Source: a virus
Taxonomy: Duplodnaviria > Caudoviricetes
Length of the DNA stretch: 26,111 nucleotides
IMG/VR virus record: IMGVR_UViG_3300044840_000005
Coordinates: 1 to 26,111 of that record
Direction: 5' to 3' (one strand)
The notes beneath the pieces were generated by a model, which was given only the letters and a program-made list of their open reading frames with translations, made no database searches and was not told the DNA's origin. Made by a program: the position numbers and the translations under genes. Positions 4,506-25,728 of the stretch are shown here, one piece after another; the stretch's first letter is position 1, and every line of letters starts with the position of its first letter.

Positions 4506-4533
4506 CGCACATCCGACCACTAGGAGGTACGCC

Positions 4534-5817
4534 CTGAGGCGTGCTATCACCACGCTCCTTGAGGAGCGCGCTGGCCTGTGGGAGCAGATGAAGGCTCTCA
4601 GTGACAAGGCCGAGGCCGAGGGACGCGATCTCACGGCCGACGAGTACGAGCAGTACGGGAAGCTGGAAAGCGACCTGGACGCGAAGGACACGCACGCTAA
4701 GCGCCTTCAGCGCGAGGCGGGCATTGAGTCCAACATGACCCGCGACGTGGCACTGCCCGAGGCTGTTCCGGCCCCGGTCGATCGCACCGTTTCGGAGGTT
4801 GCCGAGGTTCGCGCTCGCGCGGAGCGGGGCGACAAGCAGGCTCAGCGCGAGTACATCGCGTCTGACGAGTACCGGGACGCTTTCGTGGCGGGCATGAAGG
4901 CTCGTTCGCTGGGCGACCTGGACGCCGAGTCTCGCGCGGCGCTGAACGTTGGTACGGGCGCGCAGGGTGGTTTCCTTGTGCCGGCCGAGTTCCAGCGTCA
5001 GCTCGTGGAGTCGGAGCGGTTCTACGGGACGATTCGCCAGCTTTCCACGGTCATCGTGACTGCGGACAACGGTGCGCTGTCGATCCCGAAGGTTGACGAC
5101 GCTAACCGTATGGTGGCGACGTGGACCGCGGAAGCCGCGGCCTTCACGGAGTCTGAGGACCAGTTCCTTCAGGCTACGCTCGGGTCGTTCAAGCAGGGCA
5201 CCATCTCGAAGCTGTCAGACGAGCTGATTCTCGATAGCGCGTTCGACATTCTCGGGTTCGTCGCCCGTTCCGCCGGCCAGGCGCTCGGCCTGCTCGCTAA
5301 CACTGCTTACGCGGTGGGAGCGTCGGGTTCGACCACCACGCCGGAGGGGCTGCTTGTCAAGTCGAGCATCGGTCGTACGATGCCGACCGGCAACTCGACC
5401 AGCATCACGTCCGCGGACGAGCTCATTGAGCTCTACCACTCGGTTCGGCCGGCATACCGCCCTCGCGGTACGTGGGTGTTCTCGGATACGGCGATCAAGC
5501 AGGTTCGTCAGCTCAAGACGTCGCAGGGCGTCTACCTCTGGCAGCCGTCGCTTACGACTGGTGACCCGGACACGATCCTCGGTCGCCCGGTCGTTGCGGA
5601 CCCGGACGTTGCGGTTCCCGCGGCGAACGCTCTGTGCGGCGGTTTCGGTGACGTGAAGTCGGCGTACTGGATTCGCGACGTGCAGGACGTGACGGTGAAG
5701 ATCCTGAACGAGCTGTACGCGGCTAACGGTCAGGTCGGCTACCGCACGCATCGCCGTACCGACGGTGACGTGATCGACACGCTGGCGTTCAAGACGCTCA
5801 AGAACTCGGCCACCTAA
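4534..5817 (+). CDS. Major capsid protein, HK97 fold with N-terminal delta domain; probable CTG start
   Basis: Coiled-coil delta domain (LLEERAGLWEQMK..EGRDLTADE), GGFLVP, SDELILDS, YLWQP..GDPDTILGRPV, ELYAANGQVGY. AGGAGGT at 4522-4528 lies 5 nt before in-frame CTG 4534. Confidence 0.93.
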   Translation: MRRAITTLLEERAGLWEQMKALSDKAEAEGRDLTADEYEQYGKLESDLDAKDTHAKRLQREAGIESNMTRDVALPEAVPAPVDRTVSEVAEVRARAERGDKQAQREYIASDEYRDAFVAGMKARSLGDLDAESRAALNVGTGAQGGFLVPAEFQRQLVESERFYGTIRQLSTVIVTADNGALSIPKVDDANRMVATWTAEAAAFTESEDQFLQATLGSFKQGTISKLSDELILDSAFDILGFVARSAGQALGLLANTAYAVGASGSTTTPEGLLVKSSIGRTMPTGNSTSITSADELIELYHSVRPAYRPRGTWVFSDTAIKQVRQLKTSQGVYLWQPSLTTGDPDTILGRPVVADPDVAVPAANALCGGFGDVKSAYWIRDVQDVTVKILNELYAANGQVGYRTHRRTDGDVIDTLAFKTLKNSAT

Positions 5818-5830
5818 CAGGCCGATCATT

Positions 5831-5860
5831 GCGGTTCCCAGCCTACGGGCATGGCACCGC
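5831..5860 (+). other. RNA hairpin with C(UACG)G tetraloop
   Basis: GCGGT/ACCGC outer stem, CCA/TGG, and GCC-TACG-GGC apex. Confidence 0.55.
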
Positions 5861-5861
5861 T

Positions 5862-5922
5862 GGCGCGAATGGGTGCCCGCTGCTTTAGCGGTGGGCCCGG
5901 GGTTCGATTCCCCGGCGCGCCC
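5862..5922 (+). ncRNA. D-armless tRNA-like element
   Basis: GGCGCG/CGCGCC acceptor-like stem; T arm CCGGGG-TTCGATT-CCCCGG; one 9-bp hairpin GCCCGCTGC-TTTA-GCGGTGGGC in place of the D and anticodon arms. Confidence 0.55.
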
Positions 5923-5929
5923 TCATCGC

Positions 5930-6000
5930 CGCTCCGAGGGCAAAGAGTAAGCCACGGGCCTCATAAGCCTGGGAACCGGGTGCGACTCCCGGCGGAGCTA
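5930..6000 (+). tRNA. Atypical tRNA with CAT anticodon (Met/fMet-like)
   Basis: Cloverleaf: GCTCCG/CGGAGC acceptor with C1:T72 mismatch and A73; D stem GGC/GCC; anticodon arm CGGGC-CTCATAA-GCCTG; T arm CCGGG-TGCGACT-CCCGG; no encoded CCA. Confidence 0.75.
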
Positions 6001-6001
6001 T

Positions 6002-6060
6002 CGGCGGGCGGGATGGGGGTCCCGAGGGTTCCCGTCCTCGGCGCCGCCCGCCGTTCACTT
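6002..6060 (+). terminator. Strong stem followed by TTCACTT; possible terminator or attenuator after the capsid/tRNA unit
   Basis: CGGCGGGCGG (6002-6011) pairs perfectly with CCGCCCGCCG (6044-6053), with internal stems; the T-rich tail is short. Confidence 0.45.
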
Positions 6061-6076
6061 ACCGAGGAGGTACATC

Positions 6077-6271
6077 GTGAAGGTTCGCATTCTCACGGAG
6101 CGGCACCCCCACCACTCGCAGCCCGACCGCGAGTACATCGCGAGCGGGACGGAGATCGACCTTCCCGTCCAGCACGCGAAGGAACTACTCCAGCGCGGCG
6201 ACGCCGAGCCGATCGCGCAGAAGCGCGTCGCGAAGGCTGAGCGCCGCGTGGTGAAGCCCGAGACTCGCTAG
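6077..6271 (+). CDS. Small capsid-adjacent hypothetical protein (64 aa)
   Basis: GAGGAGGT SD; GTEIDLP..AKELL..GDAEP pattern common in genes following HK97-type capsids. Confidence 0.8.
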   Translation: MKVRILTERHPHHSQPDREYIASGTEIDLPVQHAKELLQRGDAEPIAQKRVAKAERRVVKPETR

Positions 6272-7110
6272 TGGACCGAGCCCTACAGTCCTCCACCGCT
6301 ACCGCTTCGGCCCAGTACACGACCGACGGCGCGAACGCCGACCCCGGCGTCGTCACGGTCGGGATCACGCGAGAGGACGGCACCACCCTCGTCGCCCCCG
6401 GTACCGCTACGGCCGGCGCGAGCACCGCGCCGCGGACGTTTGCGTTGACAACGGCCCATACGGCGACGTTGGACTTGCTGACGGTGACGTGGACGAGCGC
6501 GACGCTCGGCGTGATGACCACCTACGTGGAGATTGTCGGCGGGTTCCTGTTCACGGTTGCTGACGCCCGTGCGATCGCTCCTCTGTCGAACGCGACGCTG
6601 TACCCGAACGCGAACATCATCGCCGCTCGAACGGTCGCGGAAGCGGCGCTAGAGGACGCCTGCGGGGTTGCTTTCGTGCCGCGCTACTGCCGAGAGCTCA
6701 TCGACGGCCCGGCCGGTGGCGGGAACGAAGTCCTACTCGATCGCCCGCGCCCCCTATCGATCACGGCCGCGAGCGACACGAGCATTCCGGTCGCCGACCC
6801 TACGACACTGGTGCTGTACCGCGATGGCCGGGTCTACAACCCGACTCGCTGGGCCGAAGGCCGGCGCACCGTGTCGCTCAAGTACACGCACGGCTACCGG
6901 TTCCCGCCGCCCCGAGTAGGCCGCGCTTGCGCGCTGCTCGCGAAGCGGTTTCTCGTGGACTCCCCCATCTCTGATCGCGCGACCGTCCTTCAGTCGGAGG
7001 ACGGCACGACGCAGTTCTTTGTGACGGCCGGCGTGCGCGACGCAGTGTTCGATGTGCCGGAGTGCAATGCGGTGGTCGCTGAGTATGGCGTCCGGTTCGG
7101 GATTGGCTGA
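6271..7110 (+). CDS. Head-tail connector/adaptor with N-terminal beta-rich domain
   Basis: TVADAR...AEAALEDACG..FVPR...YTHGY..PP.VGRACALLA pattern and position; coupled overlaps at both ends. Confidence 0.7.
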   Translation: MDRALQSSTATASAQYTTDGANADPGVVTVGITREDGTTLVAPGTATAGASTAPRTFALTTAHTATLDLLTVTWTSATLGVMTTYVEIVGGFLFTVADARAIAPLSNATLYPNANIIAARTVAEAALEDACGVAFVPRYCRELIDGPAGGGNEVLLDRPRPLSITAASDTSIPVADPTTLVLYRDGRVYNPTRWAEGRRTVSLKYTHGYRFPPPRVGRACALLAKRFLVDSPISDRATVLQSEDGTTQFFVTAGVRDAVFDVPECNAVVAEYGVRFGIG

Positions 7111-7544
7111 TGGCAACATCAAGCGTGCCGTCGGTCAAGGCGGCGATCCTCGCGCTACTCCAGGGGCAGGCGGGCTTCTCCGGGGTGGATGTGCGTTACG
7201 CCCCGCCGACGAAGGACTGGCCGCGGGAGTGCGTGTTCCTGGGGAACGCGGAGTTCGCGGAAGAGTCGATCCCGACGCTGCGTCCCGCTCCTCATCGCCA
7301 CCGCGAGGACTACACGGTGCCGGTGTGGGTGAGCGTGGCGCTTGAGGGCAACGACCCGCAGGCGACCGAGGAGCGAATGTGGACGCTAACGGGGGTCATC
7401 GAGGACGCGCTGCGCAACAACCTGAACCCGTCGGGGACGGCTCTGTGGGCGATCGTGGCGGGCAAGCGCCCGCAGTTGGGCGCGGAGGACGCGCAGTGGG
7501 TCGCGGAGAACTACGTCAGCGTCCGAGTGAGGGCCGACATCTAA
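7110..7544 (+). CDS. Probable tail terminator/completion protein
   Basis: Size, position and pattern (SVPSVKAAILALL...REDYTVPVWVSV...IEDALRNN). Confidence 0.55.
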   Translation: MATSSVPSVKAAILALLQGQAGFSGVDVRYAPPTKDWPRECVFLGNAEFAEESIPTLRPAPHRHREDYTVPVWVSVALEGNDPQATEERMWTLTGVIEDALRNNLNPSGTALWAIVAGKRPQLGAEDAQWVAENYVSVRVRADI

Positions 7545-8056
7545 TGGCCCGTCCGCGAGACGTCCCGTCGAACACGCATGGCGGCGGCTGGCACTACACG
7601 GCGCTGATCGGGTTCGCCCCGGAGTCGCGGGATTGGAAGCCGGGCATGCCGACGTGGCATCCGGTGATCTCGCCTGGTGTGCGGCTTGAGGCGTATGTGA
7701 CGGTGGACGCCGGGGTGTACGCACCGACGTTCATCGGTGCCGACTCGTGGCTGATGAAAAAGGTTCACGTCGGGCACGATGCCATCATCGGGCGGAACTG
7801 TGAGCTCGCTCCGGGTGTCGTCATCGGCGGACACGCGATTCTTCGTGCCGACACGAAGATCGGTGTCAATGCCTGCGTGCTGCCGTACGTCAAGGTCGGC
7901 CGCAACTGCCGTATCGGCGCTGGAGCGGTCGTCACGAAGGACGTGCCCGACGGTGAGGTTTGGGTGGGCAACCCTGCCAGCCCCATCACCAAGACGAAGG
8001 TGTGCGAAGCGTCCGGGTGCTGCGGTGAGTGTGTCGCAGCCGGCGCGAGCGAGTGA
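7544..8056 (+). CDS. Left-handed beta-helix (hexapeptide repeat) acyl/acetyltransferase, LpxA/NeuD-like
   Basis: VTVDAG..PTFIG..WLMKKVHVGHDAIIG, repeated [IV]G hexads, IGAGAVVTKDVP..VWVGNPA; ATG 7544 in a TAATG overlap. Confidence 0.88.
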   Translation: MARPRDVPSNTHGGGWHYTALIGFAPESRDWKPGMPTWHPVISPGVRLEAYVTVDAGVYAPTFIGADSWLMKKVHVGHDAIIGRNCELAPGVVIGGHAILRADTKIGVNACVLPYVKVGRNCRIGAGAVVTKDVPDGEVWVGNPASPITKTKVCEASGCCGECVAAGASE

Positions 8057-8754
8057 AGCTCTGGGCGCTCTGCTCATGGTTCGATGAACGGCCCGAGCAC
8101 CTGACGGAGATGGTGCAGTCCCTCGCCGGGTTGTGCGACGGACTGATCGCGGTGGACGGACCGTACCCGCTGTATCCGCACGACCAGGCCGTGAGCCCGA
8201 CCGAGCAGCACGCCGCGCTTGCGGTCGCTTGCGCCGATGCGGGCATGGAATGCCACATCTACACGCCGGGCCCGCTGACGGAGGTCGACAAGCGCGCGTT
8301 CATGTTCCGCGCCGCGTTGTCCCTAGCCACGCCGTACGAGGACTGGTTCCTCATCATCGACGGCGACACAGTGGTCGGCCAATGCGCGGAGGAACTGCGC
8401 GAAGCACTGGAGCGCACCGCTGTCTCTGTCGGCGAAGTCACGATGCGGACGCTCGCCCCGCCACCGGGGCACGACACCGCAGACCAGTTCTTTCGGTCGT
8501 TGTTCCGTGCGCTGCCGGGCCTGACGGTCGAAGCGACGCACTACCTGTTTGTTGTGCCTACCGAGCGGGGGCGCCGTTATCTCTGGCACACGCCCGATGG
8601 CCACATCTCTGACGAGCCCGCGCTCGGTTTGGGTGAGCATCTTCGGCTGGATCACCGTCGCTGGGACCGTGACCCGGAGCGCAACGACGCGGCTAAGGCG
8701 TACTACGCGCAGCGCGAGAGTCTGCGTGTTGAGGTTCCGCCGGCCGAATGGTGA
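8053..8754 (+). CDS. GT-A fold glycosyltransferase-like protein (GT2-like)
   Basis: N-terminal WFDE..HL...SL....D.LIAVDG, KRAFMF, DxD motif in DWFLIIDGD, late LDH; GTGA overlap with the acyltransferase. Confidence 0.7.
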   Translation: MKLWALCSWFDERPEHLTEMVQSLAGLCDGLIAVDGPYPLYPHDQAVSPTEQHAALAVACADAGMECHIYTPGPLTEVDKRAFMFRAALSLATPYEDWFLIIDGDTVVGQCAEELREALERTAVSVGEVTMRTLAPPPGHDTADQFFRSLFRALPGLTVEATHYLFVVPTERGRRYLWHTPDGHISDEPALGLGEHLRLDHRRWDRDPERNDAAKAYYAQRESLRVEVPPAEW

Positions 8755-8859
8755 CCCGCCCGTTCTGACGGTTCGCCGCTACTTCTTTTACTGGGCGCGC
8801 AACGCGCTCGTCTCAGGGTTCATTGCCCTCATGTCGGGGCCTCACCACAAGGAGCACTA

Positions 8860-9036
8860 GTGCAGCTCGTCTACTCGGGCGCGCACGCTGAGGTCGAGGT
8901 CCCCGACGCGGGGATCGTCGCCCGGGCGGGCGTCCCCGTTGAAGTGCCGGACGCCGTTGGGCGCCGGCTCCTGGAGCAGGACACATGGGCCGAACTGGCC
9001 CCCAAGAGCGGGAAGCCGCCTAAGGAGAACGCTTGA
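8860..9036 (+). CDS. Small hypothetical protein before the tail tube (58 aa)
   Basis: AAGGAG SD, GTG 8860: MQLVYSGAHAEVEVPDAGIVARAGVPVEVPDAVGRRLLEQDTW...; TTGA overlap with the tail tube; not in the ORF track. Confidence 0.8.
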   Translation: MQLVYSGAHAEVEVPDAGIVARAGVPVEVPDAVGRRLLEQDTWAELAPKSGKPPKENA

Positions 9037-10028
9037 GCATCGTCGGCGGGCTTAGCGCCCAGTTCGGAATGGTGGACGAGACTACGTTCGGAACGTACGT
9101 CGCCCCCACCCGGTTCCTGGAATTCACGCAGGAAAGCCTCAAGCTCAGCCTTGAGCGCATCGAATCGGCGGGACTCCGTCCCTCCCGCCGCGTCCTCACG
9201 ACCGACGACTGGGTTGTTGGTCGCAGAGGCGCCGGTGGCGACGTCGAGTTCGAGGTTGCTAACAAGGGCTTCGGGCTGATGCTGAAGCATATGCTCGGCG
9301 CGGTCACTTCTGCGCAGCCGAACGCCGGGTCGAACCCGACGGTGTGGGAGCACACGGGGAAGGTCGGCGCACTGGACGCCAAGTCGTTCACTGCGCAGTT
9401 CGGGCGCGCCGGCAACGACGGCACGGTCCGCGCGTTCTCCTACCTCGGCTGCAAGGTCGCGTCGTGGGAGCTCTCGTGCGACGTCAACGGCATTCTGATG
9501 CTGAAGGCGACGCTGGACGCTGCGGACGAGACGACCGCGCAGGCGCTCGCTACGGCCTCCTACGCGGCCACGAGTGTTCCCCTCGTGTACACGGGCGGGA
9601 CGATCTCGGTGGGTGGCTCGCAGTTCGACGTGACGAAGTGCAGTGTCACGGGCGACAACGGGTTGAAGGCCGACCGGTACATGCTGCGCGGCGCGACGAG
9701 CAACGTGAAGAAGGAGCAGCTTGAGGGCTCCGGGCTTCGCCAGTACGGCGGCACGCTATCGGCCGAGTTCTCGGACCTGACGGCGTACAACAAGTTCATC
9801 AACGGCACGGTCGGCGCGTTCACCGCGTTCTTCTCCGGCGCGAACATCTCGGGTGCGTACAACTACGCGCTTGAAGTGACGATGCCGGCGGTCCGGTTTG
9901 ACGGTGACACTCCGGTTGTGGGTGGCCCGGACATCATCGAGCACGACCTGCCGTTCAAGGCGTTGGATGACGGGTCGGGCACGACTCCGTGTCAGATGGT
10001 GTACCGGACGACTGACACAACGCCCTAG
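9033..10028 (+). CDS. Major tail (tube) protein
   Basis: AQFG..DETTFGT.VAPTRFLEF..ESL, YLGCKV.SWELS, VRFDGDTPVVGGPDII; TAAGGAG SD; upstream of chaperones and tape measure. Confidence 0.85.
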   Translation: MSIVGGLSAQFGMVDETTFGTYVAPTRFLEFTQESLKLSLERIESAGLRPSRRVLTTDDWVVGRRGAGGDVEFEVANKGFGLMLKHMLGAVTSAQPNAGSNPTVWEHTGKVGALDAKSFTAQFGRAGNDGTVRAFSYLGCKVASWELSCDVNGILMLKATLDAADETTAQALATASYAATSVPLVYTGGTISVGGSQFDVTKCSVTGDNGLKADRYMLRGATSNVKKEQLEGSGLRQYGGTLSAEFSDLTAYNKFINGTVGAFTAFFSGANISGAYNYALEVTMPAVRFDGDTPVVGGPDIIEHDLPFKALDDGSGTTPCQMVYRTTDTTP

Positions 10029-10201
10029 CGGGCGATCTTCGAGGCCGCCATTTGGGCGTGCATGTCGGCCTCGGCGAATAGGCGACGGCGCTTGCGAAAC
10101 GCGAGGATCCCGGACCACCGGGCTCGACGTCGCAGGCGCCGCGCGCGGTCTAGGTGTTGCTCGGCCGTGAGGGCTTCGAGCTTGCGTGCGTGACGACTCA
10201 T
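10025..10201 (-). CDS. Antisense, leaderless, Arg-rich 58-aa moron
   Basis: MSRHARKLEALTAEQHLDRARRLRRRARW...; own promoter directly upstream; fills the gap exactly and shares CTAG (10025-10028) with the tail tube stop. Confidence 0.7.
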   Translation of the reverse strand: MSRHARKLEALTAEQHLDRARRLRRRARWSGILAFRKRRRLFAEADMHAQMAASKIAR

Positions 10202-10207
10202 GCGCGC

Positions 10208-10236
10208 ACGGTACGCCCGCCTTGCTGTTTTGTCAA
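10208..10236 (-). promoter_or_regulatory. Sigma70/SigA-type leaderless promoter
   Basis: TTGACA-N17-TACCGT-N6-ATG on the minus strand. Confidence 0.75.
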
Positions 10237-10246
10237 TGGGGGTGCA

Positions 10247-10702
10247 GTGGCCCGTCCAGTGAACCGCGAGGCGGGCGTGTATGTGGAGGGACTTGCCGCT
10301 ATGCAGCGGGTCCTTGGTAAGGCGGAAGGCGACCTCGGGAAAGAACTTAGGCAGCGCCTCAAGGGCGCTGTGTCGTTTGTTCGTACGGACGCACAGAAGT
10401 TCGCACCCGTTGGACGCGAGTCGTTTAGGTATGGGCCACGAGGCGCAGAGCGCACGAGTGGTCCGCACTTGCGCGACACGATCAAGGTGAGTGTGGCCCG
10501 ATCGTCGGCGTCCGTCTACTCCACGTCGGTTTACGGCGGGGTGCAGAACTTCGGTGGCCGCGTTGGTCGTAATCACGCAACGCTGATCAAGCGAGCGAGT
10601 GTTAGTCAGTACATGACCCGCGCAGCGCAGACGAACAAAGAACGGGTTGCCCGCGAGGTTGAAGGCGTCCTTGACTGGTTGGCCGAGGAATTGGAGAAGT
10701 GA
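10247..10702 (+). CDS. HK97 gp10-like virion morphogenesis protein
   Basis: VEGL...L, AQKFAPV, SGPHLRDTI, YGGVQNFG, YMTRAA pattern; GTG 10247 after GGGGGT. Confidence 0.65.
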   Translation: MARPVNREAGVYVEGLAAMQRVLGKAEGDLGKELRQRLKGAVSFVRTDAQKFAPVGRESFRYGPRGAERTSGPHLRDTIKVSVARSSASVYSTSVYGGVQNFGGRVGRNHATLIKRASVSQYMTRAAQTNKERVAREVEGVLDWLAEELEK

Positions 10703-10705
10703 CGA

Positions 10706-11047
10706 ATGTCTGATGTGTACTTCAAGGTCAAGCTCGACGGGCAGACGTACGAGCTGGACCGGCTGACGCTGGGCGAGGCCCGCATCCTCAAGCACGAGTT
10801 CGACATGCAGAGTCTCGAACTCCTGGACCCGAGCGACCCTGACCACCTGATCGGGCTGCTCTATCTTGCGATGCGTCGCAAGCGCCCGCACGACCCACGC
10901 GAAACGCTCATGGCGCAGATCGAAGGCGTGTCGTTTGAGGACATGGCTGAGGTCGAGTCGGATGGCGACCCTACGGAGGCCGACGAGGCAAAGGCGAGCG
11001 GTGGCTCCTCGGGCAAGACCCGGAAGAACTCTGGCAGCCGTGGCTAG
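10706..11047 (+). CDS. Tail assembly chaperone (lambda gpG-like)
   Basis: Position before the tape measure; LTLGEA; acidic region ending in DPT. Confidence 0.75.
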   Translation: MSDVYFKVKLDGQTYELDRLTLGEARILKHEFDMQSLELLDPSDPDHLIGLLYLAMRRKRPHDPRETLMAQIEGVSFEDMAEVESDGDPTEADEAKASGGSSGKTRKNSGSRG

Positions 11048-11148
11048 CTGAGCATTACCACATCCACCCCTGGGAGATGTGGCGTCTGAAAGTGTGGCAG
11101 TACCTTGAACTCGCCGAGGCCATGAAGGCTAAGGCGAAAGCGAAATAG
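10951..11148 (+). CDS. -1 frame extension of the chaperone (gpT-like), probably reached by programmed frameshift
   Basis: Open -1 frame encoding ...RWLLGQDPEELWQPWLAEHYHIHPWEMWRLKVWQYLELAEAMKAK...*, with no evident start or SD of its own. Confidence 0.65.
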   Translation, partial: GRVGWRPYGGRRGKGERWLLGQDPEELWQPWLAEHYHIHPWEMWRLKVWQYLELAEAMKAKAKAK

Positions 11149-11159
11149 GCAGGTGAGTC

Positions 11160-14100: not shown

Positions 14101-14534
14101 CGCTGGCGGACAACCTCCAGAACGGCACGATCATGTACAAGCAGTTCGCGCAGGACGTGAACGACATCCTGTCTGCTGTTGGCCTGAGCTATCAGGGCAG
14201 TCCGGACGAGGAAGCGTCGATCGCGAACATCCCGGCCGGCTCGGGCGGTAAGGCCGGCCCGTTGCGCATGGTCAACCAGTTTCAGCGGAACGCCCGGCCG
14301 AGGAAGAAGCGCGCGGCGGGTGGGTCGGTTCACCCGGGGATCTACCGCGTCGGCGAGCTCGGGCCGGAGGACCTGACGATCACTGGCTCGCGCTCCGGCA
14401 TGGTTACGCAGGCGTCGCAGTCTAACCAGGGGGGCGGTGGCAACGTGATAATGACCGGGCCCGTGTCCATGGGCTCCCGCCGCCACGCCGAAGCGCTAGC
14501 GAACCGACTCGCGTTCCGACTGCGGTTCGGCTAA
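11160..14534 (+). CDS. Tape measure protein with embedded putative peptidoglycan hydrolase domain
   Basis: 1124 aa, Ala/Gly-rich helical, LFGR motif, periodic W/F repeats, LGIASPSTVF; internal VESGLKNL.YGDRDSVGFLQQRPSQGW; C-terminal RAAGG..VGELGPE. Confidence 0.93.
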   Translation: MARKAEFIFVGDAQSVIRAAKQTSAATEKAGKSVDSVHVRMRRSFAGLTASAAKMSSGIIAAYASIEGAKKAVSTTEDLAKSTLTLHKSFGLSIKSASEWASVAKARGADGKSLVMGFKALATQTRNARQGVDAQSQAVDNLRKKQDLALQQALATGKSTADVTKLKQQQSLALDTLTSKVTGNAKTFAQLGISQVQLRKHGDDLNWVLHAVSDGLGKLPAGTDKAAIQAKLFGRTWTAVSPLIRSGSKAMDEQLAVAEKYGATLNGHSIKSIEGLVKAQREARLASMGLQVTVGTSLIPTITKGISAFAAFVNQIRNGGGGFAKFRADVKAAATEVKTDITALVAVIGPVVTKLIAGFKSLPGPVKIAVGVIAGLGLVLAATSPLGVALVAFAAIAVLIKRNWGTIGPVIQSVRNAVSGWVNRAKPDLEVLRKAFNDVATVVKTVLAVAFNFALAVAKRAWPGIKAAVQGALQVIKGVVNVFLGILHGDWARVWGGLKGIVSGVLKGAWGAIRAATAPGREAIAYVVNQALKRASDFAGKFLSIGGDLISGLINGIKDKAGDLINAIKNFVTDKIPKFVKKALGIASPSTVFYDIGQWVAKGLADGIADGKDTLTAAIKAGMLFPLDAAIANLNAQKDKLQQAFDLADSTRQRADLVTAIATAKRGKLKSVGKGSASLAGLSASGGGSVARSALAVAQRMGASPKQRLALIEAGIVESGLKNLSYGDRDSVGFLQQRPSQGWHGLRNVPAAAREFLQHAMGVNSRSLTAGQLAQRVQASAFPARYDAVKSQALSVIAGLGGGGSGGGSSKGGKKRLVVDPGAVRDAIKALHDFDRERARTNQMAKLDLKIKGIEALKQFKDAIAGVRSQLHDLASQAASVWRTQQEAAIQGGDLAQQLAGLKATDAAQQDAQQTAQLQQALSDAIAAGDVKAQKDAQDAIDAYARSKQEDAIQAQIDAQIAGLDTQEQNYQATLDNQLAALADNLQNGTIMYKQFAQDVNDILSAVGLSYQGSPDEEASIANIPAGSGGKAGPLRMVNQFQRNARPRKKRAAGGSVHPGIYRVGELGPEDLTITGSRSGMVTQASQSNQGGGGNVIMTGPVSMGSRRHAEALANRLAFRLRFG

Positions 14535-15410
14535 GTGCTAGCCACCCTCACGCTGGACGACAACACCGCCAGCGCCGTAGCCCTCCTCTCCACCGCCTCG
14601 CCGTACAAGCGCAACATCATGACCGCGTCCGGACTGTACGGGCTCGGCACGCTCCGCGACTCCAAGCGGGTGCGTCCGCAAGCGCACGGCGGGATCAGCG
14701 AGACGCGCTACCAGGACGGGCAGACGATCAGCCTTGACGGGGAAATCTCGTCGGCGGTGAGCATGGCCGACGCGTACAACGAGTGGCGTACCGTGATGTC
14801 CCCGATGCTACAAACACTGGACTCCGGCGCAGCACTGTTGAAGTGGTCTGAGGTCGGCGGCCTGGCGTTGCAGCGCTTGGTGAAGCTGGATAGTTTCAGT
14901 GACCCGGTATTGCAAGAGGCCGCGGCGGTATTGCATTACCAGGTGCAGTTTTTCGCTGAGGACCCTAGGGCGTATTCGCAGACGTTGACGACGGTTACCG
15001 GCACGGCGCTGTCGGCCGCGGCCGGCGGCATGGTGATGCCGTTCACGTTCCCGTTCAAGTTCAGTGTGTCCGGTGGTGGCACGGCGAGCTTCACGAACAC
15101 GGGCAACCGCCCCACCCCCCCGATCTTCCGGGCGTACGGTCGCGCGGTCAACGCGAACATCGTGAACCTCTCGACCGGGAAGCGCATCGCGTTGATCGGC
15201 ACGGTGAACAGTGGTGATTACCTGGAGTTGGATGCGTCGAAGCGGACGATCAAGTTGAACGGGTTGACGTTGCAAATGAACTTCTTTGATGCGGCGAACT
15301 CGTCGTGGGAAGAGGTTCCGCCTGGCGCGACGTACAACTATCAGTTGGTCGCGTCGGACTTTGATGGTTCTGCTCGCTTGGATGTGCTCGGGCGAGCAGC
15401 GTACGCGTAG
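14535..15410 (+). CDS. Distal tail (Dit-like) protein
   Basis: Directly after the tape measure; FFAEDPRAYS, PFTFPF.F, NTGNRPTPP, YLELD..KRT pattern. Confidence 0.75.
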   Translation: MLATLTLDDNTASAVALLSTASPYKRNIMTASGLYGLGTLRDSKRVRPQAHGGISETRYQDGQTISLDGEISSAVSMADAYNEWRTVMSPMLQTLDSGAALLKWSEVGGLALQRLVKLDSFSDPVLQEAAAVLHYQVQFFAEDPRAYSQTLTTVTGTALSAAAGGMVMPFTFPFKFSVSGGGTASFTNTGNRPTPPIFRAYGRAVNANIVNLSTGKRIALIGTVNSGDYLELDASKRTIKLNGLTLQMNFFDAANSSWEEVPPGATYNYQLVASDFDGSARLDVLGRAAYA

Positions 15411-15446
15411 TACGAGCACTGGAGACGGAGGCGCTGTTGGTGTGCG

Positions 15447-15671
15447 TCGGTGATCCGTCCTGCCGGACGGTGGTGGTAGCCCGGCACCGATCTTCCCCGC
15501 CCATTGCGACCCGGCACGCCCGTGAGCCCGAAGGGGCCGGGTCGTCGGAGCCATGCCCGCTGCCGTGACCGGGGGGTCACAGCATGACATGGGCGCTAAC
15601 GCTGCCCGCGCCGGCCCCAACCAGCACGAGCGGCGGACAGTGGGCGGGAAAGCCCTATAGCCGCCTATAGC
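15447..15671 (+). ncRNA. Candidate multi-stem structured RNA
   Basis: 279-nt intergenic gap filled with nested inverted repeats (details in findings); no convincing ORF. Confidence 0.5.
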
Positions 15672-15689
15672 TGATTAGAAAGGAGCCGC

Positions 15690-15980
15690 ATGGCGCGCAA
15701 GCCCCCGCAGGTCTACAACGTCGTACGAGCACAAGACGGAGCTCTCGTCGTCATAGGCGTTCCGCTCGGCAACGTGAAGGACCCAGCGCCCGGCACCGCT
15801 CTCTACGAGCGGGCGCGTCTCGCGGCCGAGGCGCGAGTGCAAGTCGACCGCACCGTCGAGATCCGGCATCCCGACACGAACGAACTGCTCCAGCCGTCGG
15901 TGCCGATCTACGCCGGCATGTTCCACGGGCAGATCACCGAGTACGAGGTGCGTGACGTGACGGGTGCGCCTGTCGCTTGA
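15690..15980 (+). CDS. Hypothetical protein (96 aa)
   Basis: Strong AGAAAGGAG SD and ATG; normal composition; no recognised family. Confidence 0.8.
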   Translation: MARKPPQVYNVVRAQDGALVVIGVPLGNVKDPAPGTALYERARLAAEARVQVDRTVEIRHPDTNELLQPSVPIYAGMFHGQITEYEVRDVTGAPVA

Positions 15981-16180
15981 GCACCCCGATTCACGTGTTC
16001 AGCATCGCCGGCCCGCAAGGCACGCGCAGGGTAGCGATCCCCGGTGCCTACTGCGCGTCGCGTTATCCGCGTCTTCGTACGGGCGAGCGGGTGGTCGATC
16101 GGACGTGGCGGTCGGATTGGCAGTACCTGGATCACCCGAATAATTCGCAGCCAGATTATCAGCAGGGCTTGTATCACTGA
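15977..16180 (+). CDS. Hypothetical protein (67 aa)
   Basis: TTGA overlap with the previous gene; fills the gap. Confidence 0.6.
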   Translation: MSTPIHVFSIAGPQGTRRVAIPGAYCASRYPRLRTGERVVDRTWRSDWQYLDHPNNSQPDYQQGLYH

Positions 16181-16214
16181 CTAGTGCCATGGGCTTTGCC
16201 CTGGGGAGGTAGGT

Positions 16215-17225
16215 ATCACTACCACGATTACGCCTGCCCTTGGTCAGGCCGCGCTTTTCACGCAGCAAGGGCCGGGTGCTTCACCGGGCTATAGCGCTAT
16301 TGATCTTCGCCGGTCGGAGATTCCGACGCCGACGCAGGAGGGCGTGTACGCGGCGGGGGATTGGATGGTCACGCAGCGTGGCGCTGGCGCGAACATGAGC
16401 GTGGATATCGCTTCGGCTCCGGTGAGTCTCGCGGCGCCGATTGCGTGCGTGCAGGGCGACAGTGTTGCCGGTCAGGGCATGTACGTGGTGGGTCCGCATT
16501 CCGCGACGGTCAATGAGGTTATCGCGACCGCGGACGCGACGAACCCGCGTATCGACCAGGTGATCTTGGAAGTCCTCGATAACGTGCACGATGCGAGCGG
16601 GTCGAACCTTGCTCGTACGCGGGTGTTGACGGGCACGCCGACGGTGGGTGCGACGTTGGCGAACCGGACTGGTGTGGCGACGTTGCCGGGTTCGGCGTTG
16701 TTGCTTGCTGACATTCTGGTGGGTGCGGCTGCGGCGAGTATCACGAATACGGTGATCCGTGACCGCCGGAAGTTCGCCCGTGGAGCGTACAACCGGATCC
16801 TTCTCAACCATGGGTCCAACTACACGACCACCGTCGGCCCCGCCGCAGTGGACACGACGAGCTTGCAGTTCCGTCTAGAGTGCTCCGGCGTGCCGGTTCG
16901 CATCCACGCAGCGGTCGATTTGCAACATTCCGTTGCTAACGCTTTCGTGACGCTTATCCCGTGGGTAGACAGTGTCAACCCTGACGGGTTTACGGGGGCA
17001 GCACATTGGCAGGTGCAGCTTACGACCAACGCGGCCAGCGACAGACGGACCGAATTCTGGCACGATGCTCTACCGGCGGCCGGCTCGCACCTATTCGCGC
17101 TAGCGTTCGGTGTTGTGACGGCCGGCACATTGACGATAGTGTCTAGCGCGACGGTACCCATTCTCTTCTCTGCGGAGGAAGTCATCCGTCAGAACACGGC
17201 GAACAACACCACGACCAGCGGCTAA
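16215..17225 (+). CDS. Minor tail/fibre-base structural protein; probable ATC start
   Basis: YSAIDLRR..EGV...GD..VTQRGAGANMSVD and NPRIDQVILEV.D...P...LLLADI.V......ITN..I.D.R motifs typical of actinophage minor tail proteins; GGGGAGGT SD at 16203-16210. Confidence 0.75.
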   Translation: MTTTITPALGQAALFTQQGPGASPGYSAIDLRRSEIPTPTQEGVYAAGDWMVTQRGAGANMSVDIASAPVSLAAPIACVQGDSVAGQGMYVVGPHSATVNEVIATADATNPRIDQVILEVLDNVHDASGSNLARTRVLTGTPTVGATLANRTGVATLPGSALLLADILVGAAAASITNTVIRDRRKFARGAYNRILLNHGSNYTTTVGPAAVDTTSLQFRLECSGVPVRIHAAVDLQHSVANAFVTLIPWVDSVNPDGFTGAAHWQVQLTTNAASDRRTEFWHDALPAAGSHLFALAFGVVTAGTLTIVSSATVPILFSAEEVIRQNTANNTTTSG

Positions 17226-17233
17226 ACGCCCCC

Positions 17234-17262
17234 TTGACAAAACGCAAAGCCGGGCGTACCTT
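17234..17262 (+). promoter_or_regulatory. Sigma70/SigA-type leaderless promoter
   Basis: TTGACA-N17-TACCTT-N7-ATG(17270). Confidence 0.75.
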
Positions 17263-17269
17263 CCCACGC

Positions 17270-17899
17270 ATGCGCTCTCCACGCCACTCCACGATCGTCG
17301 CCTACCTCGCGCTATTCGTCGCGCTTGGGGGCACCGCGGGCGCCGCTGTCACGCTGCGCGCGAACTCGATCACGTCCCGTGAGATCCGTAACGGGTCCGT
17401 GACCCGCGCCGACCTCGCCCCCAGTATCCGGCCGACGGCTGCGACGTTCCGCGCCGCGGTGACGGACATCGTGACGGACCCCGCGACGGGTATCCACATC
17501 AGCGTGACCGGCGAGAAGGGCGACAAGGGGGACCCCGGCCAGGCGGTTGCTGGACCCGCTGGCCCGCAGGGTGCGAGCGTGCAGGGGCCGCAGGGTCCCG
17601 GGGGGTCATCCGGCCCGCAGGGTGCGCCCGGTGACGTGCGAGCTTTCGGTCACGTCCGCCCCGACGGTTCGGGCACGGCGCAGGGCGTGACGGTTACGCA
17701 TCCCGGGCTCGGCGTCTATTGCGTGAACGGGACCGCGTCGGGTGTGTCCTTCCTGTCCGTGACGCCCGATGCTTCGAACTCGCAGGCGTTCGTCATTGAG
17801 GCTAACGCTCAGTCGAACTCGTGTCCGGTGGATCGCCTTGAGGTTGTCGTGTCGAACAACGGTGGCGTGGATACCGGCTTCTACTTCGTAGGGAGCTAG
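17270..17899 (+). CDS. Secreted collagen-like protein (moron)
   Basis: Signal peptide MRSPRHSTIVAYLALFVALGGTAGA, NSITSREIRNGSV...DLA, interrupted G-X-Y repeats, C-terminal beta domain with GVYCV and a second Cys. Confidence 0.85.
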   Translation: MRSPRHSTIVAYLALFVALGGTAGAAVTLRANSITSREIRNGSVTRADLAPSIRPTAATFRAAVTDIVTDPATGIHISVTGEKGDKGDPGQAVAGPAGPQGASVQGPQGPGGSSGPQGAPGDVRAFGHVRPDGSGTAQGVTVTHPGLGVYCVNGTASGVSFLSVTPDASNSQAFVIEANAQSNSCPVDRLEVVVSNNGGVDTGFYFVGS

Positions 17900-17933
17900 T
17901 CCTGCGATAGTCGTACCCACATAGGAGGGGCCC

Positions 17934-19082
17934 TTGGCCGTCGTCGCCTGGACATGGACACTCGCCGACAGCCTAGGGAACACCCTTGCTGATCTCACGA
18001 CCGCCGCCGGGCGGTCGTTGACATTCAAGCGCAACACCTACGTCGAGGCGCAGCTAACGCTCTCCCACGAGGACGACGCAGCCGCGCAGCTCTACACCTC
18101 CCTCGCGGCATCCGGTCCCCCCACCCTTCGCTGCTATCGCACCGGTCGCTACGACGGCCCGGGCGCCCCCATGACGCTCCGCTTTAACGGGTACCTCGCA
18201 ACGATCTCCGACGAGCTCGAAGAGACGGCGCTACTCACCGCGACGTTCCGTTCCCCGTTCGGCCGGCTGGTTGGGGACGGGCAGGGCACGGGCCGGTTCA
18301 CGGCGGCGAGCGACCCGCACACGGCGCCAGCACAGGACCAGGGCGCGATAGCGAAGGCGCTCATCGACACGACGAACGCTGACGCGGTTACCGGACTAAC
18401 CACGGCGTCCTCGTACGCGACGACAAAACCTCGCGACCGGACATATCAGTTCGCGAACGTGGGCGACGAGATCACGAACCTGTCGCAACTGCTCGACGGG
18501 TTCGACTTCGACGAGTCGTTCATCGACGGTGGCGGCTCATCGCTCGCGCTGTTCAACGTGTACGGCTCGCAGGGCTCCGACAAGTCCGGCACCGTGAAGT
18601 TCAACTACGGGCCGACAACGCTAGCGAATGTGTCGCACGTGTCGCGCACCATCTCGCCCCCAGTGAACCGCGTGACGGTGATCGGTGCTAACGGTTTGAC
18701 GAGCACATACAACGATGCGACTTCGCAAGGCCAGTATGGGTTGTGGCCGATGTTGCAGTCTGCGAGTGACGTGGTGGAGCAGGCGACGCTTGACGACAAG
18801 GCGCGGGCGCTGATTCGCCCGAAGCCGCTCAAGACGATCCAGTTCTCCCCGGAGCTCGCGTTGGAGTCGTGCCCGCGGTTCTTTGACGATTACGGTCTCG
18901 GCGACACGGTGAACTTCTACGGGTTGCGCGGGGCGTTCTCGGAGAGCGTGAGCGTTCGTGTCAACGCGGTGACGGTCGTCGTGGACGAGCAGGGCTTCGA
19001 GACGACTTCGATTCCGGACGCGACGGACCCCGAGTCTGATCGTGTTGCTCGCGCGCTGCTTCAGGTGGAGGTTACGTCATAG
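17934..19082 (+). CDS. Minor tail protein (hub/Tal-like, ReqiPepy6 Gp37-like)
   Basis: AGGAGG SD; DGFDFD, NRVTVIG, SQGQYGLW, DDYGLGDTV motifs; position. Confidence 0.7.
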   Translation: MAVVAWTWTLADSLGNTLADLTTAAGRSLTFKRNTYVEAQLTLSHEDDAAAQLYTSLAASGPPTLRCYRTGRYDGPGAPMTLRFNGYLATISDELEETALLTATFRSPFGRLVGDGQGTGRFTAASDPHTAPAQDQGAIAKALIDTTNADAVTGLTTASSYATTKPRDRTYQFANVGDEITNLSQLLDGFDFDESFIDGGGSSLALFNVYGSQGSDKSGTVKFNYGPTTLANVSHVSRTISPPVNRVTVIGANGLTSTYNDATSQGQYGLWPMLQSASDVVEQATLDDKARALIRPKPLKTIQFSPELALESCPRFFDDYGLGDTVNFYGLRGAFSESVSVRVNAVTVVVDEQGFETTSIPDATDPESDRVARALLQVEVTS

Positions 19083-19291
19083 GCCAGTTCAACGGTCCTC
19101 CCGACTTCATCGAGCAGATCAAGAGGCTGGACGCCCGTATCTCGTCGCTGGAGCGCACGCGGACGATCCCGATGGGTACCACGATCCCCGCGACGACGCC
19201 TCCGGATGGCGCGATGCAGGGTGACTCGTCCGGCCCGTATCTTTGGCTGAGGGTGGGGGGCGCATGGAAGCGGACAGCGGCGCTCGTATGA
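19079..19291 (+). CDS. Small tail-associated protein (70 aa); probable ATA start
   Basis: GGAGGT at 19067-19072, ATAG overlap; (M)GQFNGPPDFIEQIKRLDARISSLERTR...YLWLRVGGAWKR; ATGA overlap with the next gene; not in the ORF track. Confidence 0.75.
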   Translation: MGQFNGPPDFIEQIKRLDARISSLERTRTIPMGTTIPATTPPDGAMQGDSSGPYLWLRVGGAWKRTAALV

Positions 19292-19671
19292 GCGACGACG
19301 AGCGGTTCGACACTGGCAGCAAGGACCGCGCCACCGTCGCCATCGTCGCGGCCGAGGTCCGCGAGGTCAAGGCGATCGTCTCCGGTCACGCCGAGCTGAC
19401 GACCGAACGGTTCAAGAACCTTAACCAGCGGTTCGACATGTTCGTTGGGCTGCCGGATCTCGTGACGCGTTTGCTGGAGCGCTCCAAGGCACATGACGCT
19501 CGGCTCGACGCGCACGACAAACGGTTCAAGGCGTTGGATGACGCTGCGGAGCGACGTCGCGAATGGAGGATCGGCCCGCTTGTACAGATTCTCATTGGCC
19601 TCGCGGGGCTCCTCGTGGCGGTCGCCATGGTCTACGTGGTGGTTCACAACGGGGGCGCCCATGGGCGCTAA
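19288..19671 (+). CDS. Coiled-coil protein with C-terminal TM helix (lysis region)
   Basis: Heptad region RLDAHDKRFKALD followed by LVQILIGLAGLLVAVAMVYVVV. Confidence 0.75.
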   Translation: MSDDERFDTGSKDRATVAIVAAEVREVKAIVSGHAELTTERFKNLNQRFDMFVGLPDLVTRLLERSKAHDARLDAHDKRFKALDDAAERRREWRIGPLVQILIGLAGLLVAVAMVYVVVHNGGAHGR

Positions 19672-20002
19672 GGTGCGGCGGATCCTGCCCCGGTTCTTCG
19701 CCGCTCTCGGTATCGCGCTGGCGGTCGGAGCGATGTTCTTTGCGGTGTTCAGGAGTATCGCGGTTACGCACGCCATTCAGGTGGAGCGAGCTCGGAACGT
19801 GCTGACGAACTGCGAGTCGCAGAATCGTCGGCATGACGCGACGATCGAGACGCTTGACCGGCAGATCGAGCAGGTGCAGCGAGTGAAGCCGGAGCTTGCA
19901 ACCCAGTTCCGGGCGAGCCGGAACTTCACGGTGTTGCTCATCAACGCGATGGCGCCGAAGCAGGATTGCGCAGCGCTCGTCCGCAAGCAGGTGCAGCAGT
20001 GA
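19661..20002 (+). CDS. N-terminally anchored membrane protein (lysis region)
   Basis: TM segment FFAALGIALAVGAMFFAVF, then a helical domain with two Cys. Confidence 0.7.
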   Translation: MGAKVRRILPRFFAALGIALAVGAMFFAVFRSIAVTHAIQVERARNVLTNCESQNRRHDATIETLDRQIEQVQRVKPELATQFRASRNFTVLLINAMAPKQDCAALVRKQVQQ

Positions 20003-20121
20003 TCAACCCGAACGCCGTCTTCCTCGTCGCCTTCGCCGCTGTTGTGGGCGCCCTACTCGGTCATGTGCTGCTCGGCCTCGCGGTCGGGCTCGCGATCGTC
20101 CTTTTCGCAGCCTTCATCTAG
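19999..20121 (+). CDS. 40-aa hydrophobic membrane microprotein
   Basis: GTGA overlap; MINPNAVFLVAFAAVVGALLGHVLLGLAVGLAIVLFAAFI*; not in the ORF track. Confidence 0.7.
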   Translation: MINPNAVFLVAFAAVVGALLGHVLLGLAVGLAIVLFAAFI

Positions 20122-20129
20122 GAGTCGTC

Positions 20130-20495
20130 ATAGCTGAATCGCACGGCGAGCGCACGCTCGTCCATCTTGCCGACGTCGCACGAACCCAGTTCAAGCTGCA
20201 CGTTTGGCAGTGGCTCCCTGGTGACGTGGGTTCCGGGCACTCCCCCACGAGCCTGCACGAGCAGACGTTCCCCGGCACGAAGGTCGGGCGGGCGTTCGAC
20301 GCGTACCGGTCGAGCATCCCGCAGGCCCGGTACGCCCGCCACCTGCGCCGGCACTACGTGCCGCTGCTCACCGAGGCGATCTACAACGGCCGGTGGACGA
20401 AGCTGTCCATCAAGGACGGCAAGCATGTCGATCCGTCGTACTGGGGCGCTGACGTGTGGGCCGCGCATCGCGATCACGTTCACGTGGCGATCTAG
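20130..20495 (+). CDS. Putative Zn peptidase of the M15/Hedgehog-DD-peptidase (LAS) type; probable ATA start
   Basis: HSPTSLH...GRAFD...HRDHVHVA metal-ligand pattern; AGGAG at 20120-20124 before ATA 20130. Confidence 0.65.
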   Translation: MAESHGERTLVHLADVARTQFKLHVWQWLPGDVGSGHSPTSLHEQTFPGTKVGRAFDAYRSSIPQARYARHLRRHYVPLLTEAIYNGRWTKLSIKDGKHVDPSYWGADVWAAHRDHVHVAI

Positions 20496-25682: not shown

Positions 25683-25728
25683 TTGACAAAACGCAAACCC
25701 CTCGTCAGGCTCCTTTGCGAATCGCAAA
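25683..25728 (+). promoter_or_regulatory. Rightward early promoter and operator
   Basis: TTGACA-N17-CAGGCT followed by the palindrome TTTGCGA-A-TCGCAAA (25714-25728). Confidence 0.65.

What the first reader, a model, noticed from the sequence alone, without database searches (positions are those of the whole stretch)
4522..20132. Recurrent non-canonical start codons (CTG, ATC, ATA, ATA) in late genes, including the major capsid
Seen: capsid AGGAGGT-N5-CTG (4534); minor tail GGGGAGGT-N4-ATC (16215), with an in-frame TAG at 16182 and no ATG/GTG/TTG until 16344; 70-aa gene GGAGGT-N6-ATA (19079), with an in-frame TGA at 19037; peptidase AGGAG-N5-ATA (20130). In each case protein-like or family-typical sequence begins right after the odd codon. 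The nearest canonical alternatives for the capsid (4588) and minor tail (16344) lie only 2-3 nt from an SD. Only about a third of my called genes use ATG. Known: IF3 normally discriminates against such codons. Inference: this phage or its host relaxes initiation fidelity, or uses start-codon identity as a late-gene switch.
Basis: partly seen in the sequence, partly recalled or inferred. Interest (0 to 1): 0.8.

Follow-up and report, generated by a model that had tools for sequence, protein, structure and literature searches.

The report
Phage late genes with near-cognate starts
In this soil phage the capsid gene and three other late genes carry CTG, ATC or ATA at or next to the place where related proteins begin and likely start there, and an initiator-like tRNA gene just behind the capsid gene may help the phage use these weak starts.

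Summary
Observation confirmed. The window is a 26-kb HK97-type phage, probably of a Solirubrobacterales-like host. All four codons sit 4-6 nt behind an SD where homologues begin: 109/119 at ATC16215, 105/119 within 3 codons of CTG4534, 9/23 at ATA19079 (none later), 6/6 within 3 residues of ATA20130. Contigs confirm three sites; one also in a second study. The pattern is wider: none of 11 strong-SD starts is ATG. It is not a general host trait: candidate hosts show near-cognate starts in few genes (3/1162 ribosomal-operon starts) and no excess in an SD scan. It is not conserved gene by gene, so a dedicated late switch is unsupported. New here: an initiator-like tRNA-CAU (5930-6000, missed by ARAGORN) with a flipped 31-39 pair and an A18/G55 elbow lies right behind the capsid gene. 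But such tRNAs are common in phages, and their neighbourhoods show no near-cognate excess (17 seen, 17.6 expected). Best reading: ordinary SD-anchored near-cognate initiation that trims late output; tRNA help about 20%. The scan noted near-cognate starts and initiator-like tRNAs before in other phages, separately.

The parts
4522..4536 (+). SD (AGGAGGT), 5-nt spacer and CTG start of the major capsid gene; predicted 8-bp hairpin puts the CTG in a 4-nt loop
   Evidence: SD pairing -11.6 kcal/mol against an assumed anti-SD
4534..5817 (+). HK97-type major capsid protein, 427 aa from CTG
   Evidence: Pfam PF05065 E 4.9e-59; phrog_10; 105 of 119 homologues begin within 3 codons of the CTG; GTG in the same register in L082 and L166
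5862..5921 (+). tRNA-like remnant: acceptor-like stem and intact T arm, no proper 7-nt anticodon loop
   Evidence: Rfam hits below gathering score only; fold
5930..6000 (+). Initiator-like tRNA, anticodon CAT: C1xU72, G2-C71, C3-G70, A73, G11-C24, G29-C41, G30-C40, flipped C31-G39, A18/G55 elbow, no encoded CCA
   Evidence: Rfam RF00005 37 bits, gathering 29; arms parsed; ARAGORN default finds none, finds it at lowered threshold
16203..17225 (+). SD, ATC start (16215) and minor tail / virion structural gene, 336 aa
   Evidence: 109 of 119 homologues begin in this column; TTG or ATG at this position in L320, L323, L343; phrog_3398
19067..19291 (+). SD, ATA start (19079) overlapping the TAG stop of the 385-codon tail gene (ATAG overlap), 70-aa gene
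   Evidence: 9 of 23 short homologues begin in this column, 14 earlier, none later; ATG with ATGA overlap at this position in L323; stop overlap
20120..20495 (+). SD, ATA start (20130) and 121-aa gene in the lysis region, VldE/M15-like Zn-peptidase fold as a lead
   Evidence: 6 of 6 homologues begin within 3 residues; model pLDDT 89.7 with helix 2-19 upstream of the first GTG; Atlas 0.95 to VldE C-terminal clusters; Foldseek best hits VldE, E 0.015

Best explanation
The four genes likely begin at their near-cognate codons, read with one mismatch by formyl-Met initiator tRNA that a strong Shine-Dalgarno site holds in register, as the far end of a late-operon pattern in which strong ribosome-binding sites are paired with weak start codons. 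Shown: position, SD, homologue register, the 0-of-11 ATG pattern. Inferred: the SD supplies the binding energy that the codon lacks; at 19079 ribosomes ending the upstream tail gene on the overlapping TAG would also re-initiate directly; host ribosomes tolerate such starts at a few genes of their own. Inferred purpose: output per transcript is trimmed and kept under IF3 control, which would limit virion and lysis proteins from leaky late transcripts and is paid for by abundant late mRNA. The phage tRNA most likely tops up initiator supply and escapes host enzymes that cut tRNA-fMet; it need not be specific for these codons.
For: Homologue N-termini and canonical codons at the same positions in relatives' DNA. 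Residues 1-18 of the capsid (before ATG 4588) are strongly conserved in close homologues. Near-cognate starts have stronger SDs than canonical ones in the window (one-sided Mann-Whitney p 0.028); 0 of 11 strong-SD starts are ATG against 8 of 22 weak-SD starts (Fisher p 0.031) and 109 of 240 SD-led starts in host ribosomal loci (binomial p 0.0013) (the -9 kcal cut-off was chosen after seeing the data). The minor-tail family already leans to weak starts: 10 Leu and 6 Val first residues among 37 JGI-translated homologues. Candidate hosts use such starts: rnc CTG in 3 of 3 genomes, a kinase-like gene ATT in 3 of 4, adk ATA in an ATAG overlap in 3 genomes. Precedent: extended SDs carry AUU/AUA starts at about 10-30% of AUG output in S. 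aureus (PMC13009471, passages); an extended RBS precedes the IF3-repressed GTC start of sigR (PMC5472188, passages).
Against: A capsid protein is needed in hundreds of copies, and CUG, AUC and AUA gave only 1-2% of AUG output in E. coli reporters (10.1101/063800, passages); the capsid start is also predicted to lie in a hairpin (z -1.84, 10 of 200 shuffles as stable). Simple tuning does not explain why only this phage shows the pattern: related prophages and phages use mostly ATG and no comparison group shows an excess. Canonical start calls for many window genes rest on SD and overlap, not on homologues. No expression or proteomic data.
Confidence: 0.5

Rival explanations
1. The phage's own initiator-like tRNA, made from the capsid transcript, is policed less tightly by IF3 (changed elbow, flipped 31-39 pair) or swamps it by amount, so near-cognate late starts are read well only during lytic growth: a positive feed-forward gate on late translation.
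For: The tRNA lies 112 nt behind the CTG-started capsid gene on the same strand. It keeps the formylation-type acceptor and G30-C40 but changes U55 to G, where IF3's N-terminal domain touches the initiator tRNA; breaking that contact from the IF3 side raised AUU starts about 5-fold and AUA 1.5-2-fold (PMC9723500, passages). Flipping 30-40 lowers discrimination against CUG (PMC11497404, passages); a cg/GC/cg tRNA still supports E. coli (PMC5389676, passages). Host fMet tRNAs seen all keep the three G-C pairs; none of 14 matches to the flipped arm in 301 host-class genomes is a tRNA. Two promoter-led leaderless genes and the first gene of the rightward early region use ATG.
Against: The tRNA type is common in phages (about 1100 stretches estimated; 78 with G55) and their flanks show no near-cognate excess: 5 seen vs 7.7 expected and 17 vs 17.6 (flanks of 6-10 kb only, few with virion genes). 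The 30-40 flip did not make CUG initiation efficient. The closest relative with DNA (L162, capsid 66% identical) has no tRNA behind its capsid gene.
Confidence: 0.2
2. The true host belongs to a lineage with lax start-codon proofreading, and the phage has simply drifted among ATG, GTG, TTG, CTG and ATH.
For: All 34 IF3 sequences with Ser in place of the Gly of the DYGK motif have a canonical infC start; of the 25 Gly-type, 20 start at ATA behind an SD (three of the 20 read by eye). G001, G378 and the relatives of G378 are all Ser-type. By my recalled numbering this Gly is E. coli G71, the counterpart of the S. coelicolor G63D fidelity mutant (one search shows only the S. coelicolor name). GTG and TTG are frequent in host ribosomal genes (477 of 1134).
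Against: Ser-type genomes show no excess of SD-led near-cognate starts (8 vs 8.1 in 400 kb of G378; 11 vs 18.1 in 800 kb of four relatives), and their prophage in G378 uses mostly ATG. The IF3/infC match follows kinship and may be one or two events.
Confidence: 0.17
3. The capsid really starts at a canonical codon (ATG 4588, or ATG 4444 with an extension that is later cut off with the delta domain), and only the three low-copy genes use near-cognate starts.
For: 7 of 119 capsid homologues were called at the Met matching ATG 4588; ATG 4444 has an AGGAG 10 nt upstream; high capsid demand.
Against: Those 7 are gene-caller outputs without DNA check; the 18 residues before ATG 4588 are conserved; nothing aligns to the ATG 4444 extension; the 7-nt SD in the intergenic gap has no canonical codon 4-11 nt behind it in any long frame.
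Confidence: 0.09
4. Assembly error or a decaying prophage whose start codons have mutated.
For: Uncultured contig; depth only 6-10; ATA 20130 not checked against a listed contig.
Against: Three sites match contigs without a difference, one in a second study. Single-base changes giving a premature stop outnumber start-destroying changes 8.4 to 1 (1945 vs 231), yet all 33 called frames are open. All four codons are among the best near-cognates.
Confidence: 0.04

Closest known systems
S. aureus near-cognate starts behind extended SDs (cvfC1 AUU, ccpN AUA, citZ AUA, infC AUA; PMC13009471, passages)
   Same: Near-cognate codon at the true N-terminus, strong SD at normal spacing, reduced output expected
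   Different: There a few conserved regulatory genes; here 4 of 33 genes of one phage operon, including the capsid, and not conserved gene by gene
IF3-repressed starts: infC (AUU/AUC/AUA) and Streptomyces sigR GTC (PMC5472188, passages)
   Same: Actinobacterial setting, long SD before a non-canonical codon
   Different: No feedback loop evident, no IF3 gene in the window, IF3 dependence untested
Bacterial initiator tRNA-fMet
   Same: CAU anticodon in a CUCAUAA loop, unpaired 1-72, G2-C71, C3-G70, A73, G29-C41, G30-C40
   Different: C31-G39 instead of G31-C39, G55 with A18, short D loop and variable loop
Phage tRNAs altered to escape host anticodon nucleases (PMC10264068, passages)
   Same: Changes next to the anticodon loop relative to the host tRNA
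   Different: That paper reports that phages of its Shigella set generally avoid encoding tRNA-fMet; resistance of this tRNA is untested
Termination-reinitiation at -4 overlaps (PMC10666635, passages)
   Same: Start at 19079 overlaps the upstream stop by 4 nt
   Different: The overlap is ATAG (ATA start, TAG stop) rather than ATGA; the same arrangement occurs at secY-adk in three host-class genomes

Membership tests
IF3-controlled near-cognate start (infC / sigR / ccpN type) | Near-cognate codon at the conserved N-terminus with no usable canonical codon | tested here: met
IF3-controlled near-cognate start (infC / sigR / ccpN type) | Strong SD at normal spacing | tested here: met
   -11.6, -12.1, -10.5 kcal/mol; weaker (-6.8) at 20130 (anti-SD assumed)
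IF3-controlled near-cognate start (infC / sigR / ccpN type) | Odd codon conserved across relatives | tested here: not met
   109 of 119 minor-tail homologues were called with a canonical start there; ATG/GTG/TTG in relatives' DNA. For the capsid unclear: 6 of the 12 closest homologues are called 3-18 codons short, no DNA available
IF3-controlled near-cognate start (infC / sigR / ccpN type) | Translation rises when IF3 is impaired | not testable with these tools
   needs reporters in an infC fidelity mutant
Bacterial initiator tRNA-fMet | CAU anticodon in the CUCAUAA loop, cloverleaf | tested here: met
Bacterial initiator tRNA-fMet | Unpaired 1-72 with G2-C71, C3-G70, A73 (formylation determinants; C1-A72 in PMC11497404, the others recalled) | tested here: met
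   C1xU72, G2-C71, C3-G70, A73; 5' end inferred from the cloverleaf
Bacterial initiator tRNA-fMet | Three consecutive G-C pairs 29-41, 30-40, 31-39 | tested here: not met
   first two present, third is C31-G39; hence called initiator-like, not filed as tRNA-fMet
Bacterial initiator tRNA-fMet | G18/U55 elbow | tested here: not met
   A18/G55; the two co-vary in viral tRNAs of this type: AG without GG in the D loop in 46 of 57 with G55, 2 of 96 with T55 (related sequences not corrected for)
Bacterial initiator tRNA-fMet | Charged with Met, formylated, enters the P site | not testable with these tools
   no RNA run holds the stretch; needs biochemistry
HK97-type major capsid protein | PF05065 domain above cut-off, with terminase, portal and protease upstream | tested here: met
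VldE / M15-type Zn peptidase (g20130) | Fold and His/Asp/His metal site | tested here: inconclusive
   invariant H43, D57, H116, H118; Foldseek E 0.015, TM about 0.5; Atlas 0.95; no Pfam hit

The most novel reading that the evidence does not exclude
A phage-encoded variant initiator tRNA, co-transcribed with the capsid gene and altered exactly where IF3 and the 30S head inspect it, loosens start-codon proofreading late in infection and so switches on virion and lysis genes that are locked behind CTG/ATC/ATA starts: a tRNA-gated late translation programme.
Probability: 0.2. Interest if true: 0.88.

Novelty: new variant of a known kind. Interest (0 to 1): 0.55.

Why it matters
A major capsid gene that starts at CTG runs against the rule that near-cognate starts mark scarce proteins, and gene callers cut three of these proteins short (the public calls for this contig are 409, 286 and 89 aa against 427, 336 and 121). 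The phage puts weak starts and a variant initiator tRNA on one transcript, which gives a simple reporter test of a long-open question: what phage initiator-type tRNAs do beyond topping up supply. If the tRNA has no effect, the case is still a clean example of SD strength traded against codon strength.

Tried and rejected
Restriction-site avoidance as the cause: ATG-containing 4-mers are not depleted (CATG 174 seen, 172 expected). Genome-wide host laxity: no excess. General link between this tRNA type and near-cognate starts: not found. The window count in that SD scan (4 near-cognate, 0.3 expected, 3 canonical) is circular because I set the rules knowing the four sites; only the comparison groups are informative. 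Ile2 (AUA-reading) identity for the tRNA: rejected because its acceptor and 29-41 pair differ from the non-initiator host CAT tRNAs seen and 1-72 is unpaired (Ile2 determinants recalled). Search for DNA of close capsid relatives: viral scans gave only distant capsids or nothing, the metagenome scan gave one 66% relative cut before its start (L162), GenBank phages under 60%; 6 of 401 host-class genomes hold a capsid match and 3 of 401 a minor-tail match. Clustering ribosomal ORFs by connected components failed through off-frame ORFs and the first host orthologue pass was noisy; both were redone with filters, which dropped 33 of 103 and 18 of 95 clusters. No RNA holder listed, which says nothing on expression. 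Promoter/terminator consensus scans were at chance level. No paper linking a phage initiator tRNA or a phage capsid gene to near-cognate starts appeared in the listings; the library lacks most subscription papers and I read no supplements.
Full report
What the window is. The window is the whole held record: 26,111 bases, 65% G+C, with terminase, portal, protease, HK97-type capsid, tail and lysis-region genes on the + strand. Two soil runs hold it. The best capsid match among GTDB genomes lies in a contig titled uncultured Solirubrobacterales (L082, 48%); a prophage with eight homologous head-to-tail genes in the same order lies in G378, a genome of the same class; one minor-tail homologue is labelled Solirubrobacter sp.. 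The host is therefore inferred, not known.

The observation. All four codons, SD motifs and spacings are as reported. Contigs of X1 match without a difference across 4534, 16215 and 19079, and a contig of X2, another study, across 19079; 20130 is in none of the 16 listed pieces.

Are they starts? Minor tail gene: 109 of 119 homologues begin in the ATC column, 3 slightly earlier, 7 later by 1-14 codons, none at GTG 16344; relatives' DNA has TTG (L320) or ATG (L323, L343) at this position. Capsid: 105 of 119 homologues begin within 3 codons of the CTG, 7 at the Met of ATG 4588, and none aligns to the frame upstream of the CTG, which argues against ATG 4444; the 18 residues before ATG 4588 are conserved, and L082 and L166 have GTG in the same register. 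70-aa gene: of 23 short homologues among 31 hits, 9 begin in the ATA column, 14 belong to a longer form that begins earlier, none begins later; L323 has ATG there. g20130: all 6 homologues begin within 3 residues of the ATA, and the model folds residues 2-19, upstream of the first GTG, as a confident helix. Decay is unlikely: premature stops are 8.4 times the larger target and none is seen in 33 called frames.

The wider pattern. My 33 start calls from the small terminase to 24019 are 15 GTG, 8 ATG, 6 TTG, 2 ATA, 1 CTG, 1 ATC. None of the 11 starts with a strong SD is ATG, against 8 of the other 22 (Fisher p 0.031; cut-off chosen after the fact; anti-SD assumed). ATA 19079 overlaps the TAG of the upstream 385-codon gene, an ATAG version of the usual ATGA overlap; ATA 20130 overlaps a second in-frame TAG behind the upstream gene. 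The capsid CTG and the ATC are predicted to sit in hairpin loops whose stems take the end of the SD (weak, z -1.84 and -0.98). Three copies of a TTGACA box precede ATG genes, two of them leaderless.

Host or phage? In 40 ribosomal operons of the class, 1153 of 1162 starts are canonical, 3 are ATA (adk, overlapping the secY TAG) and 6 were unresolved long N-termini. In four relatives of G378, 1 of 70 orthologue groups has a clear near-cognate start (RNase III gene, CTG in 3 of 3); in four genomes of another branch, 2 of 77. An SD scan with control codons finds no excess in host DNA (22 vs 22.2, 8 vs 8.1, 11 vs 18.1, 10 vs 15.9), in 240 capsid loci (12 vs 11.0, 10 vs 9.3, 11 vs 8.8) or in 23 tail relatives (2 vs 3.0). 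So these hosts can use such starts but do so rarely, and this phage stands out. One lead for a milder host effect: G001, G378 and its relatives have Ser for the Gly of the IF3 DYGK motif and a canonical infC start (34 of 34 Ser-type), while 20 of 25 Gly-type genomes start infC at ATA; this follows kinship and is not independent evidence.

Between the capsid stop and the next gene lies a tRNA gene with anticodon CAT (5930-6000; Rfam 37 bits, gathering 29) that ARAGORN misses at default settings, preceded by a tRNA-like remnant. It has an initiator-type acceptor and G29-C41, G30-C40, but C31-G39 and an A18/G55 elbow. Host fMet tRNAs keep three G-C pairs. The flipped arm is common in viral tRNAs (about 1100 stretches estimated; about half of 118 parsed have an unpaired 1-72; 78 with G55), and A18 co-varies with G55, so the gene looks maintained rather than decayed. 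In E. coli the IF3 contact at G19/U55/C56/A57 and the anticodon-stem pairs both bear on start-codon choice (PMC9723500, PMC11497404, PMC5389676; passages). That makes a tRNA-aided reading plausible. Against it: DNA flanking these tRNAs in other phages shows no near-cognate excess (5 vs 7.7; 17 vs 17.6), though few of those flanks hold virion genes; the 30-40 flip did not make CUG efficient; and L162, the closest capsid relative with DNA, lacks the tRNA. Escape from host tRNA-fMet nucleases is the more ordinary role (PMC10264068, passages); a review passage notes that such cleavage stimulates initiation at elongator codons (PMC3905216).

Mechanism. Most likely (0.5): ordinary SD-anchored near-cognate initiation, helped at 19079 by coupling, as the extreme of a strong-SD, weak-codon late operon, with the tRNA as a general supply. 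Rivals: tRNA-gated late translation (0.2), an unsampled permissive host (0.17), a canonical capsid start (0.09), error or decay (0.04). The main unexplained point is how a CTG start feeds capsid demand: E. coli reporters give 1-2% of AUG (10.1101/063800, passages), S. aureus extended-SD sites about 10-30% (PMC13009471, passages).

Novelty. Near-cognate bacterial starts and phage initiator-like tRNAs are both known, and earlier notes of this scan report each in other phages (unchecked notes). None of those listed concerns a capsid gene or the two features together, and my paper searches listed none; supplements were not read. Verdict: real, a new variant of a known kind, interest 0.55.

Noticed in passing
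window 10222-10236 (-), 17234-17262 (+), 25683-25711 (+): Three copies of a TTGACAAAAC-box with a 17-nt spacer (3 seen, 0.01 expected); two lead within 6-7 nt to an ATG (leaderless genes at 10201 on the minus strand and 17270), the third to the gene at 25747. Likely early or lysogenic promoters.
   Followed up: partly
window 5862-5921: tRNA-like remnant ahead of the CAT tRNA: good T arm and acceptor-like stem, long hairpin without a 7-nt anticodon loop; decayed tRNA or processing signal.
   Followed up: partly
window 6003-6052: G+C-rich inverted repeat right behind the tRNA, read from the sequence, not folded; could end or stabilise a capsid-tRNA transcript.
   Followed up: no
window, whole: Strong avoidance of palindromic hexamers (CTCGAG 0 vs 16.9 expected, AGGCCT 0 vs 10.8, AAGCTT 0 vs 10.5, CTGCAG 2 vs 16.2), as expected from host restriction.
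   Followed up: no
L242-L272, L366-L395: IF3 of G001, G378 and its relatives has Ser in the DYGK motif and infC starts at GTG/ATG; most Gly-type genomes of the class start infC at ATA behind an SD.
   Followed up: partly
G402, G414, G419 (L396-L435); L287, L291, L311; G016, G064, G118: Host near-cognate starts: RNase III gene at CTG; adk at ATA overlapping the secY TAG; a diacylglycerol-kinase-like gene at ATT; one gene with ATA where its orthologue has GTG (gene names from recalled motifs).
   Followed up: partly
L486-L682: Viral CAT tRNAs with a flipped 31-39 pair form a large group; G55 co-varies with A18.
   Followed up: partly
window 7544-8754: A hexapeptide-repeat acetyltransferase-like gene (by eye) and a glycosyltransferase (phrog_7009) sit between head-completion and tail genes; possibly virion modification.
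   Followed up: no
window 15411-16184: Insert of short ORFs and inverted repeats between the distal-tail gene and the ATC-started gene; in L320, L321, L322 and L343 these two genes are adjacent. A 7-codon ATG frame (16189-16212) ends 2 nt before the ATC.
   Followed up: no
window 25174-25572 (-): 133-aa gene divergent from the promoter box at 25683, without a family hit; position of a phage repressor.
   Followed up: no
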